Source of the DNA: Candidatus Altimarinota bacterium
GTDB lineage: Bacteria > Patescibacteriota > Gracilibacteria > 1-14-2-50-48-13
Length of the DNA: 64,000 nucleotides
Assembly (NCBI GenBank): GCA_046314355.1
Contig: JBKBWQ010000001.1
Span: 1,344,001 to 1,408,000 of the forward strand
Reading direction: 5' to 3'
Both the position numbers and the translations under genes were made by a program. Under the pieces are notes generated by a model that saw only the letters and a list, made by a program, of their open reading frames with translations, made no database searches and was not told the DNA's origin. This document shows positions 22,071 through 59,910 of the stretch, piece after piece (position 1 is the first letter of the stretch; each line of letters begins with the position of its first letter).

Positions 22071-22156
22071 AATAGGAATGTCAATAAAAATATGTGTATC
22101 ACATTGTAATTTATAGAAAGTAACTGCTAGTTAAGCAATTAGTTGTTACAATAGTA

Positions 22157-25176
<3,020 letters not shown>

Positions 25177-25323
25177 CTATTGTACCGCTTCTCTCCCATT
25201 TGGGAACTATTCGTAAGGATAGTAACTAGATGGGGATGCTTAACTAGCAATTACTTTCCGTAAATACAAGATACATCTACTGACATTTCTAAAACAATCA
25301 GATCATTTCGTAAAAAGACATGA

Positions 25324-25440
25324 TCTTGGTAATTATACTAAAGAGGGTACACCTGATCCCATTCCGAACTCAGAAGTTAAGCTCTTTAAGGCCGATGGTA
25401 CTTCAAGCGTTGCTTGCGGAAGAGTAGGTAGTTGCCAAGA
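25324..25440 (+). rRNA. rrf: 5S ribosomal RNA
   Basis: CACCTGATCCCATTCCGAACTCAGAAGTTAAG, GCCGATGGTAC, GAGTAGGT; TCTTGG/CCAAGA terminal stem. Confidence 0.95.
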
Positions 25441-53965: not shown

Positions 53966-55720
53966 TTATAGATTACAAACGATGTTCTTCATCTCCTGTA
54001 ACTGTGCTAGAGCTTTAGCTACATTTTTGGTTTCTGCTACATCAATATTCATATGTTTTTGCATTAATTCTTTATAAGTTCCATCCCAGCCTGCATTCAG
54101 CAAATTAGTATAGTTACTCATAAACTTTTCTTTATCTTCTTTCCATAGATTGATAAAGAGAAGTGCATTCAATGACGCCAAGGTATACTGATAATTATAG
54201 TATGGTGTTTCAAATGAATGTCTTCGGGATGTCCATCTGTAAGCAGCTTCTTCCGGGACTAAAATTTCAGTTCCGGCGATTTCCTGGCTTTCAGTCATGT
54301 GCCAATCAGATATTTGTTTTCCTGAGGGCATGTCTCCTTTCAGCAGAGACTGTTCAATGTTACACTCAAGAGTCAAAGGCTGTCTTTCTCTAAAAATGAA
54401 AAACAATAATGATTCCAACTCTGAACTAAGATATGTTTTTTTTATATCCAGAGGAATATCTGCCTCAAGAATAAAATAAAATCCAATTGCTTCAAAGAAA
54501 GTTGAATGGCTTTCATTTAAAGCTCTTGAAGGTACCAGAGAATTCATATTCATGAGTTTTCCGGCTGCTCGCTGTCCATAGAGATTATCCACACAATGAC
54601 CAATTTCGTGAAATACATAGGATAGGTAGGAAGTTTTAAATACATTTTTCCAACCTATAATTGCCCATGGACCATTATAACAGTTCTCGGCATGTATCAC
54701 ATTTTGTCTGTGAGGTAAATCCTCAAACTGAACCCTACCTTCTTCGAAGAACTGTTTTACTGAGGTGCCAATGTCATCGGATATAAATTTCCCGAGGGAA
54801 ATAGTATATTCGATAGCTTCTTGAATACTAATAGGATTATTGGTATCAAGAGGAGCATTAATATCGTAGAGTGCAAAGTCATTTAATCCTAGTTTTGCAG
54901 ATTTGAAACTATAATATTCTCTATAAATAGTATTCTGAAGTTGAATAGTATCCATAATATTCCACACTTCTTCGCCTGTTAAGCCGGAACCATGAGCACT
55001 CATTTCAAAGGCAGACTTAAATCCATACTTTTTTGCTAATGTAATTTGCTGCTGTATGCTTCCATTCAAAAGTTCTGAAAAATCATCGAGCTGTTCTTTT
55101 ACAAATGCATAATTATAAAAAGATGCACGTCTGACTGACCTATCCGAATGATTAGAATGCTCAGATGCCCACCGTAAGTCATAAGGCAGCATTTTATGAA
55201 GCTTGGCATATTTTTCAATTTGCCCGCTATAAAATTCTCCACTTGTTGGATCGATATTCACTACAAGTGACCGAATGTTCTTAAGGAATTGCTTTGCATG
55301 AATTTTATAAGGATCGAGTATCAACAAAAATGCATCAAACTCTGCATCTGTGAATTCGATGAGATCTTTAAATGACTCAATAGCACTATCTAAATCACCA
55401 TCGAGAATGGAAACAGAGATAAAGGCTTCTTTAGCTTTCATATTACTTTCATCAAGAGCACGAAGATTACGTGTATAAACTGTCATGATATTCATAAGAA
55501 TTGTCTGATCTGAATATGCATGCAACATTGCGGCGTAGTCTTTTAGATCCCTTGATATCTTATAGAGATCATACTGATCTTTCACTTCCTGTATTTGAGC
55601 TTTAAGCTCTTTAAGTGAAAAATTCCATTTAGGATCTTCCAAAGAAAGAAAGAACATATCTAAATTCATTCCGTATAGAGCATTTTGCTCACTATTCGGG
55701 TACTTTTTTTCAAACATCAT
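53966..55720 (-). CDS. Divergent M3B oligoendopeptidase F-like metallopeptidase
   Basis: W.F..L N-terminus, YDI.AP, HEIGH zinc motif with downstream E..S.FFE, W....H....YYNYQY. Confidence 0.7.
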   Translation of the reverse strand: MMFEKKYPNSEQNALYGMNLDMFFLSLEDPKWNFSLKELKAQIQEVKDQYDLYKISRDLKDYAAMLHAYSDQTILMNIMTVYTRNLRALDESNMKAKEAFISVSILDGDLDSAIESFKDLIEFTDAEFDAFLLILDPYKIHAKQFLKNIRSLVVNIDPTSGEFYSGQIEKYAKLHKMLPYDLRWASEHSNHSDRSVRRASFYNYAFVKEQLDDFSELLNGSIQQQITLAKKYGFKSAFEMSAHGSGLTGEEVWNIMDTIQLQNTIYREYYSFKSAKLGLNDFALYDINAPLDTNNPISIQEAIEYTISLGKFISDDIGTSVKQFFEEGRVQFEDLPHRQNVIHAENCYNGPWAIIGWKNVFKTSYLSYVFHEIGHCVDNLYGQRAAGKLMNMNSLVPSRALNESHSTFFEAIGFYFILEADIPLDIKKTYLSSELESLLFFIFRERQPLTLECNIEQSLLKGDMPSGKQISDWHMTESQEIAGTEILVPEEAAYRWTSRRHSFETPYYNYQYTLASLNALLFINLWKEDKEKFMSNYTNLLNAGWDGTYKELMQKHMNIDVAETKNVAKALAQLQEMKNIVCNL

Positions 55721-57991: not shown

Positions 57992-58657
57992 ATGATGCCT
58001 TTGCTTGAAGTGAAATCCCTTTCGAAGTCCTACGGCACTGAGAAGATACTCTCAGATGTGTCTTTTTCTATGGAGCAGGGAAAGGTAGTAGCCATTAGTG
58101 GTCCTTCCGGAAGCGGGAAAACAACTCTCCTTCATATGATTGCAGGACTTATTACTCCAGAAAAAGGTGAGATTTTTCTAGATGGTACAGATATATTACT
58201 CCTCTCAGAGAGTGCTCGTCTAAGAATACTCTCTGAAGAGGTTGGGGTGGTCTTTCAGGCTTTTCATCTTCTCCCGTACCTTACTGTGGAGGAAAATATA
58301 AGTTTGCCTCTTCTTTTCAAAAAAGAGTCCGCACATGCAATGAAGAAACGAATCTCATATATTTTGGAAAGAGTAGGTCTTAAGGATCACGAGCATAAAA
58401 AGATCTCTGAGTTATCGGGAGGGCAAAGACAGCGTGTGGCAGTTGCACGGGCTCTTCTGCATAAGCCAAAGCTGATACTGGCAGATGAACCCACAGGAAA
58501 TCTAGATGAAATGACTGCAACACAGGTAACAGATCTCCTGGAGACTCTTGCACGTGAGGAAGGAGCAAGTGTATTACTCGTCACTCATGAGCAGGCATAC
58601 CTGGAAAAAGCAGATGAGATCTGGGATCTTAAAGAGAAAAAGTTAGTGAAGAGATAA
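57992..58657 (+). CDS. ABC transporter ATP-binding protein (LolD/FtsE-like)
   Basis: GPSGSGKTT, VFQ.F.L, LSGGQRQRVA, LADEPTGNLD and VTH motifs. Confidence 0.92.
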   Translation: MMPLLEVKSLSKSYGTEKILSDVSFSMEQGKVVAISGPSGSGKTTLLHMIAGLITPEKGEIFLDGTDILLLSESARLRILSEEVGVVFQAFHLLPYLTVEENISLPLLFKKESAHAMKKRISYILERVGLKDHEHKKISELSGGQRQRVAVARALLHKPKLILADEPTGNLDEMTATQVTDLLETLAREEGASVLLVTHEQAYLEKADEIWDLKEKKLVKR

Positions 58658-58662
58658 GTCTC

Positions 58663-58770
58663 CGTCATCCCGGGCTCGACCCGGGATCTCATGCGCATAG
58701 CTAGAGTCGCCAGCGTAATTTTGCGACTCATGTAAAGTGTATGAAATTCTGAAACAAGTTCAGAATGACG
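58663..58770. repeat. Inverted pair of GTCATYC REP-like palindromes
   Basis: CGTCATCCCGGG-CTCGA-CCCGGGATCT ... ATTCTGAA-ACAAG-TTCAGAATGACG. Confidence 0.75.
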
Positions 58771-58790
58771 CGGCTTTCATGATATCACGT

Positions 58791-59090
58791 AAAAGAAAAC
58801 CCACCACGTATGACGTGGTGGGTTTTAGAAGAACTGATTTTGGTCCTTCTTCCTCCTTTTATTCAGTCAACAGGTCTCAATAGAAATGAACCTGTCACGA
58901 CTGCTTATTCTTTGCGTTGAATTTTTATTTTTACTTTTTGTTTTTTTAAAATTTTTGTTCCTTTTATTTTTGATTTTTTTTGGAATTTTGTTTTGAAGTG
59001 CAAAGAAATAAGTAAGGAGGAGAAAGGAACTAGTATTTAGGTGCTTTCTTCTCCCTGCTTAAAGCGATGAGATGTCAAAGAACAGACTTC
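58791..59090 (-). ncRNA. Candidate novel ~300-nt structured ncRNA with boxA and A-rich loop
   Basis: TTGCTC-N18-TATACT promoter with extended -10 TG, boxA TGTTCTTTGACA, nested long-range stems, side hairpin, strong terminator; no ATG-started ORF longer than 5 codons. Confidence 0.6.
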
Positions 59091-59319
59091 ATAGAAGTAT
59101 ATCATGAATAGGGAGTTTTGAGCAATAATCATCTTTGAAAAAGATAAATTTTAAACGATACAGAGAAAAGCTAGTACTTTGTAATAAAATGATCATTCTG
59201 CAAAGAGCAAGTGATTGGCTTTAATTGATTCTTTGCCGGCTATCCTTATAGTAACTCCGCAGCAAAACACGTTCATTGAAGTATCATATTATAATAAAAA
59301 AAGGAGCATATACAAAAAA

Positions 59320-59910
59320 ATGTTCAAGTTTTTAAAAAACCTTTTTCGTACCTTTCATACAGATAAATCTGTGGAAGAAGGACAGAAAAAAGTTATTGAA
59401 CAACATGTACTACCGCCACCAGTTTTTATACACCAGCCCAATATTAATACTATAAATATTAATATTGTGAACGGTGATAATAATAAGGTGGGTAATGATT
59501 CAAACAACACGGAGGTCATTAGATACGTGCCACAGTCAGATCTATTGTTGCGCGAAGTGGTGAACTACGCACTCAATAAGGATATGTATGGTCTCAGAGT
59601 TTGGAGTGTTTTAGATGATCAAGACGTAGTAGGGTACTTTTTTGTCGGCAATGACGAGAGAATGCGCATGTACGTAGATTCTGAAAAAGTCTCACTTAGA
59701 CCAGGAGTGAGAGCTTCAGGTAAAAAGAGACTCATTGATGAGAACTTTTATTGTACACTAAATATAATTACCACACATACGTGGGAAAGTTGTTTAGAAG
59801 CAGATAATATTATTCAAATCAATAATGCTCCAAGCAAGAGAAGTCTTGTATTAAGTGAATTAGCTGAGGAGGTGATAATCAGCAGTAAGCGAAAGCTTGT
59901 AGGTAAATAA
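59320..59910 (+). CDS. Hypothetical orphan protein with amphipathic N-terminus
   Basis: AAGGAG SD, MFKFLKNLF start, terminator at 59933-59959. Confidence 0.6.
   Translation: MFKFLKNLFRTFHTDKSVEEGQKKVIEQHVLPPPVFIHQPNINTININIVNGDNNKVGNDSNNTEVIRYVPQSDLLLREVVNYALNKDMYGLRVWSVLDDQDVVGYFFVGNDERMRMYVDSEKVSLRPGVRASGKKRLIDENFYCTLNIITTHTWESCLEADNIIQINNAPSKRSLVLSELAEEVIISSKRKLVGK

What the first reader, a model, noticed from the sequence alone, without database searches (positions are those of the whole stretch)
58791..59125. Stand-alone non-coding transcription unit: boxA plus a long stem enclosing an ~80-nt A-rich loop
Seen on the minus strand: -35 TTGCTC (59125-59120), extended -10 TGaTATACT (59104-59096), then a near-consensus Nus boxA TGTTCTTTGACA (59084-59073). 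Nested complementary arms follow: AGAAGAA/TTCTTCT, TCCTTTCTCCTCCTT/AAGGAGGAAGAAGGA and CTTATTTCTTTGC/GCAAAGAATAAG. They enclose an almost G-free loop of A-runs broken by single C/T (CAAAACAAAATTCCAAAAAAAATCAAAAATAAAAGG..., ~58996-58918). A side hairpin (58902-58865) and a perfect 13-bp-stem terminator with a U-tract (58826-58791) complete the unit. The middle helix pairs an anti-SD-like CCTCCTTA with an SD-like AAGGAGG. There is no ATG-started ORF longer than 5 codons. Established: boxA directs NusB/S10 antitermination of untranslated RNAs such as rRNA. Inference: this is a dedicated ncRNA laid out like an rRNA precursor (leader, processing-type stem, payload) whose payload is an A-rich single strand. 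It could act as a sponge or decoy for ribosomes, S1 or nucleases, or be excised as a small RNA. It matches none of the tmRNA, SRP, RNase P or 6S features I can recognise.
Basis: partly seen in the sequence, partly recalled or inferred. Interest (0 to 1): 0.85.

Follow-up and report, generated by a model that had tools for sequence, protein, structure and literature searches.

The report
New A-rich-loop RNA gene family
This is a stand-alone gene for a roughly 300-base structured RNA that makes no protein, has relatives in related uncultured bacteria and matches no catalogued RNA family, so it probably marks a new RNA class whose job is still unknown.

Summary
On the minus strand at 59125-58790 lie an extended -10 promoter, a boxA-like word, purine/pyrimidine helices, a stem closing an 84-nt loop (57 A, 3 G), a side hairpin and a 14-bp terminator. 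The fold is far more stable than shuffles (z = -7). No Rfam family matches and no conserved ORF exists.

Two sister genera carry a counterpart in the same place (SerRS, ABC ATPase, then the element antisense). Their sequences are unalignable, but the design is the same: perfect 7-8 bp stems of different sequence closing 73-75-nt A-rich loops.

The promoter plus boxA-like leader also heads this genome's tmRNA gene. In other genomes of the class it heads tmRNA, RNase P RNA and a CRISPR array. A profile built from 13 RNAs of three other families finds this element as the top hit in 1.7 Mb (E = 3e-4). Those longer RNAs share a GCAGGGAG/CCUCCC hairpin and G-free CA-rich linkers, and they show covariation.

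It is therefore the expanded-loop member of an undescribed RNA family of Gracilibacteria-class CPR bacteria. Function is inferred only; my best guess is a protein- or ribosome-binding decoy. Expression is untested. The nested "processing stem" is not conserved.

The parts
59120..59125 (-). -35-like hexamer TTGCTC (3 of 6 to consensus)
   Evidence: Read directly. It lies 18 nt upstream of the -10. The consensus scan did not list it.
59096..59104 (-). extended -10, TGaTATACT
   Evidence: TATACT/TATAAT followed by CTATGA sits at the same relative place in G002 and G001. The same TATACT precedes the tmRNA gene of this genome.
59073..59084 (-). boxA-like leader word TGTTCTTTGACA
   Evidence: 2 matches in the window against 0.12 expected. 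A -10 plus this word occurs twice in the genome, here and before tmRNA. The class-wide pattern gives 43 matches against 15 for the reversed control, by my count of the table.
59044..59058 (-). Pu1, purine strand GCAGGGAGAAGAAAG (5' strand of the family hairpin P2; alternatively pairs with 58827-58833)
   Evidence: GCAGGGAG(AA) is shared with RNAs of families f7 and f10. The nhmmer hit spans from the -10 to this strand. Constrained fold.
59012..59027 (-). Py1, pyrimidine strand CCTTTCTCCTCCTTAC; pairs either with Pu1 (13 of 15) or with Pu2 (14 of 15)
   Evidence: It contains CCUCCUU, which is identical to part of the 16S 3' end.
59000..59012 (-). 5' strand of the loop-closing stem, CTTATTTCTTTGC
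   Evidence: 8 contiguous pairs, 12 with one mismatch.
58916..58999 (-). 84-nt A-rich, G-poor loop (57 A, 14 U, 10 C, 3 G); runs of 4-8 A broken by 1-4 other bases, mostly C or U
   Evidence: Unique in the genome apart from a poly-A contig. Counterpart loops of 75 and 73 nt in G002 and G001.
58904..58915 (-). 3' strand of the loop-closing stem, GCAAAGAATAAG
58864..58903 (-). side hairpin
   Evidence: Present in the minimum-energy fold and in both constrained folds. One or two hairpins of unrelated sequence sit at this place in G002, G001 and G023.
58844..58858 (-). Pu2, purine run AAGGAGGAAGAAGGA (Shine-Dalgarno-like, no start codon after it)
   Evidence: A GGAG-containing purine run follows the A-rich tract in all four RNAs read.
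58827..58833 (-). Py2, TTCTTCT
   Evidence: It pairs with AGAAGAA of Pu1, or locally with the end of Pu2.
58790..58826 (-). intrinsic terminator: 14-bp stem, 3-nt loop, U-tract
   Evidence: The weak Rfam hits here (rnk_leader at 32.7 bits, gathering score 50) are driven by this hairpin.

Best explanation
This is a stand-alone gene for a structured, untranslated RNA of about 300 nt. It is the expanded-loop form, found in lineage f1, of a previously uncatalogued RNA family in the Gracilibacteria-class CPR bacteria.

Shown:
- The unit has an extended -10 promoter and a boxA-like leader word of the kind that, in this class, heads stable untranslated RNAs (tmRNA, RNase P RNA, a CRISPR array).
- It has a purine/pyrimidine hairpin (GCAGGGAG.../...CCUCC).
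- It has a stem presenting an 84-nt A-rich strand with only 3 G.
- It has a side hairpin, a Shine-Dalgarno-like purine run with no ORF after it, and a terminator.
- Relatives keep the design and the base composition, not the sequence.

Inferred:
- NusB/S10 load on the leader and help RNA polymerase make and fold the RNA.
- The mature RNA acts in trans as a decoy or scaffold. Its A/C-rich single strand plus the GGAGG run imitates a translation-initiation region without a start codon. It would thereby hold a single-strand RNA-binding partner, most plausibly ribosomal protein S1 or the 30S subunit.

My odds: about 0.8 that it is a real conserved ncRNA gene of this family; about 0.25 for the S1/30S decoy mechanism specifically.
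For: Fold stability:
- This genome z = -6.99, G002 z = -5.71, G001 z = -6.04; no shuffle folded as well in any of the three.

Synteny and design:
- SerRS, ABC ATPase, then the element antisense is found in 3 of the 4 genomes of family f1; the fourth contig ends there.
- Perfect closing stems of 8, 7 and 8 bp with different sequences close loops of 84, 75 and 73 nt that hold 3, 0 and 3 G.

Coding potential:
- No ORF is conserved on either strand.

Known families:
- No Rfam match at gathering score in the window, and only terminator-driven weak hits at E up to 10.
- None in 12 loci of relatives at E up to 0.01, apart from tRNAs and one microRNA false hit.

Leader:
- The same -10 plus boxA-like word lies 3 nt before tmRNA in this genome.
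- It also lies before tmRNA in G054, RNase P RNA in G296 and a CRISPR array in G068.
- NusB is encoded.

Family link:
- An nhmmer profile of 13 RNAs from families f7, f21 and f24 (from the -10 to the purine strand) puts this element first (E = 3.3e-4) and the G002 element second (E = 0.023) in 1.7 Mb.
- The GCAGGGAG / CCUCC(C)U hairpin and the G-free A/C-rich single strands are shared.
- G023 bridges the two forms, with the f7-type leader and a 53-nt A-rich tract.
- The f7 form has 157 predicted pairs, 10 of them with compensatory changes, plus insertions of whole hairpins, among 5 species.

Decoy idea:
- In mRNAs of the same class that carry the same leader word, CA-rich tracts lie directly upstream of GGAGG and ATG (L268, L269).
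- Pu2 here is a perfect complement of the 16S 3' end.
Against: - No expression data exist.
- The three f1 sequences cannot be aligned, so covariation in f1 is shown only as whole stems replaced, among three genomes. Each closing stem taken alone is only modestly improbable: 129, 166 and 26 of 2000 flank shuffles do as well.
- The profile hit includes the promoter and the leader word, which unrelated stable-RNA genes share. Homology of the RNA body therefore rests on short motifs.
- The 16S and 23S leaders of this genome lack the same word.
- The Rho RNA-binding domain and Hfq were not found in this genome. The usual reason for a boxA and the usual A-rich-binding sponge partner are therefore missing.
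- The enclosing helix P1 of the f7 form is not clearly kept here.
- G001 lacks the GGGAG and CCUCC motifs.
- No partner protein is linked by gene neighbourhood. The upstream neighbours have no Pfam family and no counterpart in sister genomes.
Confidence: 0.55

Rival explanations
1. Precursor reading. The long pyrimidine/purine helices form an RNase III-type processing stem. The inner stem with the A-rich loop is cut out as the active small RNA, as mature rRNA is cut from its leader-trailer helix.
For: In this genome the nested fold is the minimum-energy structure, and about 27 pairs stack nearly coaxially. A boxA-like leader is typical of processed stable RNAs. In this genome's tmRNA gene the same word lies in a leader upstream of the start of the Rfam tmRNA match.
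Against: The nested fold is worse than the local-hairpin fold by 11.8, 9.1 and 17.8 kcal/mol in G002, G001 and G023. It is better by only 1.4 kcal/mol here. The processing stem is therefore not the conserved feature. No read data exist to show ends.
Confidence: 0.1
2. A very divergent copy of a known housekeeping RNA that was not found in this genome: 6S RNA or SRP RNA.
For: Neither 6S RNA (RF00013) nor small or large SRP RNA (RF00169, RF01854) was found in this genome. CPR RNase P RNAs are known to escape standard models (passages of PMC8172020 read).
Against: For SRP RNA:
- There is no helix-8 type motif in the element, and none stands out in the genome by a crude pattern.
- The SRP proteins were not found either: SRP_SPB in 0 of 9 genomes and the SRP54 GTPase in 0 of 5, with controls positive in 14 of 14.
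- No GxxGxGKT..DTAGR..TKxD frame exists in the genome.

For 6S RNA:
- The fold is a branched structure with an 84-nt hairpin loop, not a rod with a central bubble.
- The relatives in f7 are 360-614 nt long.
Confidence: 0.05
3. Type I toxin-antitoxin pair, or plain antisense regulation. The plus strand would encode a 36-aa hydrophobic peptide (58886-58996), and the minus-strand RNA would be its antitoxin.
For: Antisense ORFs of 36, 38, 40 and 42 codons rich in F, L and V cross the T-rich strand in all four RNAs examined.
Against: Such frames stay open by composition alone, because the antisense strand has few A. The start codons are ATG, TTG, GTG and GTG, and none has a Shine-Dalgarno sequence upstream. 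The consensus scan lists no plus-strand promoter upstream of the peptide frame; its one plus-strand site (59225-59252) lies beyond it. The position is conserved in synteny across genera, which is unusual for type I pairs.
Confidence: 0.04
4. Not a functional RNA. It would be low-complexity intergenic DNA that expanded by slippage between a chance promoter and the bidirectional terminator of the convergent ABC ATPase gene.
For: The sequences of the three f1 copies are unalignable. The tract shows weak internal repeats of period 6, 11 and 33. The terminator has A's before and T's after it, so it could also serve the plus-strand gene.
Against: Loop length (73-84 nt), G avoidance, perfect closing stems, the extra hairpin, the promoter and the terminator are kept in three genera although the sequence has turned over completely. 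Fold z-scores are -5.7 to -7. The 5' part is significantly similar to RNAs of other families.
Confidence: 0.1
5. A DNA-level element, such as a replication origin unwinding element or a terminus site, rather than an RNA.
For: It is an A/T-rich tract of 84 bp flanked by inverted repeats.
Against: The cumulative GC-skew extremes of the 1.62-Mb contig lie at 314 kb and 1,083.5 kb; the element is at 1,403 kb. The strand asymmetry (A on one strand, G avoided) and the promoter-terminator frame point to RNA.
Confidence: 0.01

Closest known systems
boxA leaders of rRNA operons and other untranslated RNAs (NusB/S10 antitermination complex)
   Same: A 12-nt word lies close to the 5' end of an untranslated transcript and agrees at 10 of 12 positions with the E. 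coli rrn boxA (the consensus is recalled, from no call). The word recurs before tmRNA, RNase P RNA and a CRISPR array in this class. NusB is encoded. That boxA binds NusB-NusE is stated in abstracts seen in the search listing (PMC3177189, PMC4807359).
   Different: The 16S and 23S leaders of this genome do not carry it. The Rho RNA-binding domain was not found. Binding is untested. In G002 and G001 the word is degenerate.
Protein-sponge RNAs with repeated single-stranded motifs (CrcZ/CrcY for Hfq-Crc, CsrB/RsmZ for CsrA); recalled, no call
   Same: It is a stand-alone, terminator-ended RNA that displays many copies of a short A-rich motif in unpaired regions between helices.
   Different: It has no sequence or Rfam relation to them. 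Hfq was not found in this genome. There are no GGA loops. The motif lies in one long loop rather than in many hairpin loops.
6S RNA
   Same: Like 6S RNA it is a stand-alone, untranslated, promoter-to-terminator RNA gene; abundance and stability are not shown here. It was considered because no 6S RNA was found in this genome.
   Different: The fold is branched with a giant hairpin loop, not a rod with a central bubble. There is no RF00013 score.
The tmRNA gene of the same genome (C1:790733-791154)
   Same: It has the same TATACT -10 and the word TGTTCTTTNACA immediately upstream.
   Different: The element has no tRNA-like domain or tag frame. ARAGORN finds no tmRNA in the window, and the genuine tmRNA lies elsewhere.
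Unnamed 360-614-nt RNAs of families f7, f10, f21 and f24 found here (for example L212:1507-2011, L214:1501-1862, L204:1501-1866, L270)
   Same: They share the leader, the GCAGGGAG/CCUCCC hairpin, G-free A/C-rich single strands, a purine run GGUAGGGAG/GGAGG near the 3' side and a terminator.
   Different: There the single strands are two 11-17-nt CA- or A-rich linkers between extra hairpins. Here and in G001 and G002 there is one 73-84-nt loop. Their enclosing helix P1 is not clearly present here. These RNAs are themselves in no database searched.

Membership tests
Any Rfam 15 family | covariance-model score at or above the curated gathering score | tested here: not met
   One search lists 5 matches in the window, none at the element. 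In one search the best hit is rnk_leader at 32.7 bits against a gathering score of 50, and it aligns only over the terminator.
boxA / Nus-factor leader | boxA-like word near the 5' end of an untranslated transcript | tested here: met
   TGTTCTTTGACA lies at 59084-59073, 11 nt after the -10. The same arrangement precedes tmRNA.
boxA / Nus-factor leader | same word in the rRNA leaders of the same genome | tested here: not met
   The 16S leader has GGACCTTTGATATC. No such word was seen in the roughly 650 nt read upstream of the 23S gene.
boxA / Nus-factor leader | NusB encoded; Rho present as the factor to be countered | tested here: inconclusive
   NusB is found at E = 1.1e-30. Rho_RNA_bind is not found.
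boxA / Nus-factor leader | NusB-S10 binds the word | not testable with these tools
   This needs an EMSA or filter-binding assay.
6S RNA | RF00013 match; rod-like helix with a central bubble | tested here: not met
   No match in the genome or at the locus. The fold is branched with an 84-nt hairpin loop.
SRP RNA | RF00169 or RF01854 match; helix-8 motif; Ffh partner | tested here: not met
   Searches give no match. The helix-8 type pattern gave no hit at the element's coordinates. SRP_SPB is found in 0 of 9 genomes and SRP54 in 0 of 5. The regex finds nothing.
tmRNA / RNase P RNA | model match at the locus | tested here: not met
   Both lie elsewhere in the genome. ARAGORN finds no tmRNA in the window.
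Type I toxin-antitoxin | small hydrophobic ORF with ribosome-binding site and its own promoter, overlapped by an antisense RNA | tested here: not met
   The ORFs exist, but they lack a Shine-Dalgarno sequence and their start codons are inconsistent. The scan lists no plus-strand promoter upstream of the frame.
Hfq/Crc-type sponge (CrcZ-like) | repeated A-rich motifs in unpaired RNA, and Hfq in the genome | tested here: not met
   The motifs are present, but the Hfq family was not found.
New family seen here (boxA-led GCAGGGAG / A-C-linker RNAs) | leader plus 5' domain similar in sequence | tested here: met
   With the nhmmer profile of 13 non-f1 members, this locus is the top hit (E = 3.3e-4, 20.2 bits) and G002 the second (E = 0.023). 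An earlier, cruder profile of 10 members gave E = 0.16 and 0.2, also the top two.
New family seen here (boxA-led GCAGGGAG / A-C-linker RNAs) | purine/pyrimidine hairpin P2 and G-free A/C-rich single strand(s) followed by a purine run and a terminator | tested here: met
   P2 has 13 of 15 pairs here, and the P2 fold costs -76.8 against -80.3 kcal/mol for the minimum-energy fold.
New family seen here (boxA-led GCAGGGAG / A-C-linker RNAs) | enclosing helix P1 between the post-boxA segment and the 3' purine run | tested here: inconclusive
   P1 is clear in f7. Here only a short, interrupted helix appears, and only in the constrained fold.

The most novel reading that the evidence does not exclude
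The element and its relatives would be one class-wide, single-copy housekeeping RNA of Gracilibacteria-class CPR bacteria, in genomes where the searches here found no SRP, Hfq or Rho RNA-binding domain. Its G-free A/C-rich strands plus GGAGG run would mimic a start-codon-less ribosome-binding site and hold 30S subunits or S1. That would make it a dedicated RNA governor of translation capacity. The f1 lineage would have expanded the binding platform six-fold into an 84-nt loop.
Probability: 0.2. Interest if true: 0.85.

Novelty: categorically new. Interest (0 to 1): 0.68.

Why it matters
CPR bacteria make up a large share of bacterial diversity, yet almost nothing is known of their non-coding RNAs beyond rRNA, tRNA, tmRNA and RNase P RNA.

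This locus leads to a conserved, promoter-to-terminator RNA family seen in at least five GTDB families of one CPR class. The family is absent from Rfam 15, and my four literature searches found no description of it.

The family has an unusual design principle. Selection appears to act on an unpaired, G-free, A/C-rich strand whose length ranges from 11 nt to 84 nt, rather than on its sequence.

The work also shows that, in this class, a boxA-like leader marks stable untranslated RNA genes. That gives a practical handle for finding more of them.

If the RNA binds ribosomes or S1, it would be a new kind of global translation regulator in organisms where the searches here found no Hfq, no Rho RNA-binding domain and no SRP components.

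I rate the novelty as new because every membership test against known families failed. The rating concerns the RNA class, not a demonstrated new mechanism.

Tried and rejected
Searches for homologues that led nowhere:
- BLAST of the element against 61 relatives gave only low-complexity A-rich matches. Most of those I looked at (L009, L011-L015) are not counterparts. L010 (G023) is one.
- The SerRS-anchored scans of genome contigs and metagenome contigs (80 loci each) added no further syntenic copy. Among the 191 sequences scanned, only the copies in this genome, G001 and G002 lie in the syntenic place. Other A-rich windows were listed, and of those only L010 (G023) proved related.
- The G003 hit on contig C55 is only a similar promoter in front of a protein gene. 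G003's own syntenic contig ends about 200 nt after the ABC ATPase, so its status is open.
- MAFFT alignment of the three f1 copies is uninformative, so I did not run RNAalifold or pair counts on them.
- Alignments A3 and A4 of the 5' domains were too ragged for a trustworthy covariance model. I built no model and made no class census.

Class-wide word search:
- The 17-nt leader word with one mismatch matched in 94 of 401 genomes. The reversed control also matched often; I did not tally it.
- Of the 29 places printed, only 4 had a -10-like word upstream.
- Of the 20 further places I fetched, I read 5 as RNAs of the family. The rest were mRNA leaders or coding matches.
- That tally therefore says nothing about prevalence.

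Other checks:
- Loop periodicity is weak.
- The GC-skew test rejects an origin or terminus.
- A Lys-rich peptide on the sense strand is rejected, because neither frame nor start is conserved.
- Expression: the look-up of sequencing runs listed no RNA holder. This is no evidence either way.
- The one DNA holder (X1, labelled a hot springs metagenome) may be the source sample. Laying it shows only that the tract assembles identically.

Literature:
- Searches found no description of such an RNA.
- Searches were for context.
- Searches did not yield the boxA consensus, which I therefore give from recall.
- Papers seen: PMC8172020 (passages); PMC3177189, PMC4807359 and PMC7862264 (search listing and abstract starts only).
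- Recalled without any call: the E. coli rrn boxA sequence; boxA before CRISPR arrays and other genes (Stringer et al. 2020; Baniulyte et al. 2017); CrcZ; CsrB; BC1/BC200.
The supplement tables of PMC8172020 on CPR RNAs might bear on whether such RNAs were noticed before.

Full report
**What is there.** Read on the minus strand, the 660-bp gap between an ABC ATPase gene (57992-58657, plus strand) and a hypothetical gene (59320-59910, plus strand) holds a complete transcription unit. Its parts, in order, are:
- TTGCTC (59125-59120), then 18 nt;
- TGaTATACT (59104-59096);
- TGTTCTTTGACA (59084-59073);
- a purine run GCAGGGAGAAGAAAG (59058-59044);
- a pyrimidine run CCTTTCTCCTCCTTAC (59027-59012);
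- a stem CTTATTTCTTTGC/GCAAAGAATAAG closing an 84-nt loop (58999-58916) with 57 A, 14 U, 10 C and 3 G;
- a side hairpin (58903-58864);
- a second purine run AAGGAGGAAGAAGGA (58858-58844);
- TTCTTCT (58833-58827);
- a 14-bp terminator (58826-58796) with a U-tract.

**Is it more than chance?**
- The RNA folds at -80.3 kcal/mol against -47.9 (sd 4.6) for 200 dinucleotide shuffles, z = -6.99.
- Only two windows in the whole 1.69-Mb genome are as A-rich and G-poor. One is this loop and the other is a poly-A run on a small contig.
- A second assembly of public run X1 is identical over the region at depth about 20. That run may be the source, so this excludes an assembler artefact and nothing more.

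**What it is not.**
- Rfam 15 gives no match at gathering score. At E up to 10 the hits are weak, the best of them aligned over the terminator.
- ARAGORN finds no tmRNA in the window. tmRNA and RNase P RNA lie elsewhere in the genome.
- 6S RNA and both SRP RNA models find nothing in the genome, which made a divergent 6S or SRP RNA worth considering.
- For SRP the partner is missing too. The Ffh M domain is found in 0 of 9 genomes and the SRP54 GTPase in 0 of 5 (this genome and relatives), while all 14 control genomes ring. No SRP-GTPase signature exists in any frame of this genome, and a crude helix-8 pattern gives no convincing candidate.
- The fold is branched with a giant hairpin loop, unlike the 6S rod.
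- Coding is unlikely on either strand. On the sense strand neither frame nor start is conserved. The antisense frames of 36-42 hydrophobic codons stay open by composition, use ATG, TTG, GTG and GTG, and lack a Shine-Dalgarno sequence. The consensus scan lists no plus-strand promoter upstream of them.
- The GC-skew extremes lie at 314 kb and 1,083.5 kb of the contig, far from the element at 1,403 kb.

**Relatives in the same place.** Record titles of the nearest SerRS loci name Candidatus Gracilibacteria, Peribacteria, Peregrinibacteria and Abawacabacteria MAGs. The GTDB family of this genome has three other species genomes.

In G002 and G001, SerRS and the ABC ATPase are followed, convergently, by a unit of the same design. 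The design is a TATACT or TATAAT -10 followed by CTATGA, a purine/pyrimidine hairpin, a perfect stem closing a long A-rich loop, one or two hairpins, a purine run and a terminator.
- The stems are TCCGGGT/ACCCGGA in G002 and GTCGCTGA/TCAGCGAC in G001.
- The loops are 75 nt with no G in G002 and 73 nt with 3 G in G001.
- Both RNAs fold well beyond shuffles, z = -5.71 and -6.04.
- The three sequences cannot be aligned. What is kept is architecture, loop length and composition.
- Taken singly, the closing stems are only modestly improbable: 129, 166 and 26 of 2000 flank shuffles do as well.
- In G003 the contig ends just after the ABC ATPase gene.

**The leader.**
- In this genome the word TGTTCTTTNACA lies shortly downstream of a TATACT -10 at only two of the places printed: here, and 3 nt before the tmRNA gene, where the word is TGTTCTTTCACA. 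The other three exact matches printed there have no such -10.
- Across 401 genomes of the class, the pattern TATAMT-N5-18-TGYTCTTTDACA matched 43 times in 41 genomes. The reversed control matched 15 times, by my count of the table.
- Reading the 30 loci returned, I found the pattern in front of tmRNA (G054), RNase P RNA (G296), a CRISPR array (G068), several structured leaders of small ORFs, some probable chance sites inside genes, and a recurring set of long unannotated structured RNAs.
- NusB is encoded.
- I therefore read the word as a genuine boxA-type signal of untranslated RNA genes in this class.
- Three reservations apply. The 16S and 23S leaders here lack it. The Rho RNA-binding domain was not found. 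The word is degenerate in G002 and G001.

**A wider family.** The recurring RNAs begin TATAMT-N4-5-AGATT-TGYTCTTTKACA and run 360-614 nt to a terminator. By my reading I saw them in these genomes:
- family f7: G071, G101, G118, G126, G162, G244, G292, G312, G321, G325, G377, G393, G397;
- family f10: G083;
- family f21: G023;
- family f24: G189, G271.

None matches Rfam at E up to 0.01 (12 loci were searched, 6 of them from this set).

They share:
- a hairpin with a purine 5' strand GCAGGGAG(AA) and a pyrimidine 3' strand CCUCCCUGC;
- two invariant G-free linkers, such as AAACACAAACA or AAAAACAAAAACAAAA;
- a purine run GGUAGGGAG that pairs back to the segment after the leader.

Five species of one genus give 157 predicted pairs, 10 of them with compensatory changes, plus insertions of whole hairpins.

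G023 joins the two forms, having the f7-type leader and a 53-nt A-rich tract. G271 has a 17-nt A-rich hairpin loop.

The element in the window carries GCAGGGAGAAG and CUCCUCCUU at the matching places. They form a 13-of-15 hairpin.

An nhmmer profile of 13 of these RNAs, none from f1, spanning the -10 to the purine strand, ranks the window's element first (E = 3.3e-4) and the G002 element second (E = 0.023) in 1.7 Mb. A cruder profile had already ranked them first and second at E = 0.16 and 0.2. Part of that score comes from the promoter and leader, which other stable-RNA genes share.

- In G002, G001 and G023 the upstream pairing is the minimum-energy fold, by 11.8, 9.1 and 17.8 kcal/mol.
- In this genome the two constrained folds are -76.8 and -78.2 kcal/mol, and the unconstrained fold is -80.3.
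- The nested 'processing stem' is therefore real here but is not the conserved feature.
- The presence of two partners in all three f1 copies may point to a switch. I did not test that.

**How it may work.**

Shown: a conserved, non-coding, promoter-to-terminator unit whose kept properties are helices and an unpaired G-free A/C-rich strand.

Inferred: it acts in trans through that strand.
- Hfq was not found, nor the Rho RNA-binding domain, so the usual partners of A-rich or C-rich unpaired RNA are unlikely.
- In mRNAs of the same class that carry the same leader word, CA-rich tracts lie directly before GGAGG and the start codon (L268, L269).
- The 16S rRNA of this genome ends GGAUCACCUCCUUU, and Pu2 here is AAGGAGG with no start codon after it.
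- The RNA thus looks like a ribosome-binding region without a gene. I take a decoy or scaffold for S1 or the 30S subunit as the most likely mechanism, at about one chance in four.
- The gene neighbourhood gives no partner. The flanking genes are a TIM-barrel protein, an ABC ATPase and three proteins without a Pfam family, and the upstream neighbour has no counterpart in sister genomes.

**Novelty and limits.** Four literature searches and Rfam 15 show no description of this RNA. A paper on closed CPR genomes reports that CPR RNase P RNAs escape standard models (PMC8172020, passages read), so uncatalogued RNAs in this group are not unexpected.

Noticed in passing
whole genome G000 and relatives: No trace of the SRP pathway was found. 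Small SRP RNA matched in 0 of 61 genomes (this genome plus 60 class relatives) and in 0 of 61 genomes of a phylum sample, this genome included. Large SRP RNA was not found in this genome. The Ffh M domain matched in 0 of 9 genomes and the SRP54-type GTPase (Ffh/FtsY) in 0 of 5, while controls rang in 12-14 of 14. No SRP-GTPase signature appears in any frame of this 98%-complete genome. The RNA searches over 40 genomes used stricter filters, so weak matches may have been lost.
   Followed up: partly
G000:C1 about 791,155-791,200 (minus strand); L205 (G054); L217 (G296); L197 (G068): The same -10 plus TGTTCTTTNACA word directly precedes tmRNA in this genome and in G054, RNase P RNA in G296, and a CRISPR array in G068 (its repeat is visible; I did not type the array). 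This suggests a class-wide boxA-type leader for untranslated RNAs.
   Followed up: partly
L212:1507-2011, L223:1486-1992, L224:1483-1971, L225:1425-2000, L226:1506-2119 and others: Uncatalogued RNAs of 489-614 nt occur in one genus of family f7 (360-580 nt in the other f7 genera read). They have 157 predicted pairs, 10 of them compensatory, insertions of whole hairpins and invariant AAACACAAACA linkers. No Rfam match.
   Followed up: partly
L268, L269, L271, L272, L273 (f10); L220, L221 (f8): The same leader word also heads long structured 5' regions. These end in a CA-rich tract, GGAGG and the start of small, apparently membrane proteins, sometimes in two tandem copies about 1.6 kb apart.
   Followed up: no
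window 58660-58785: Two palindromic repeat-like words lie between the terminator and the ABC ATPase gene: one of the type tcattctgaacttgtttcagaat and one of the type cccgggtcgagcccggg. A similar word is at the end of the G003 contig (L030, about 995-1012).
   Followed up: no
window 22156-25440; G000:C1:1206759-1208242: The rRNA genes are unlinked. 23S and 5S lie in the window, and the 16S gene lies about 158 kb away on the same contig.
   Followed up: no
L030 850-930 (G003): Where the sister genomes have the RNA gene, G003 has an A-rich tandem repeat of 7-nt units (AAAACTG/AGAACTG/AGAATTG). It lies on the same strand as the ABC ATPase gene, just before the contig ends.
   Followed up: no
G000:C16:2090-2171: A run of more than 60 A lies on a small contig. 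It may be an assembly artefact or foreign DNA.
   Followed up: no
whole genome G000: The Rho RNA-binding domain and Hfq were not found, while NusB is present.
   Followed up: no
window 55092-55103 (+): A second exact TGTTCTTTTACA lies about 800 nt upstream of the SerRS start, with no -10 before it. It is probably a chance match.
   Followed up: no
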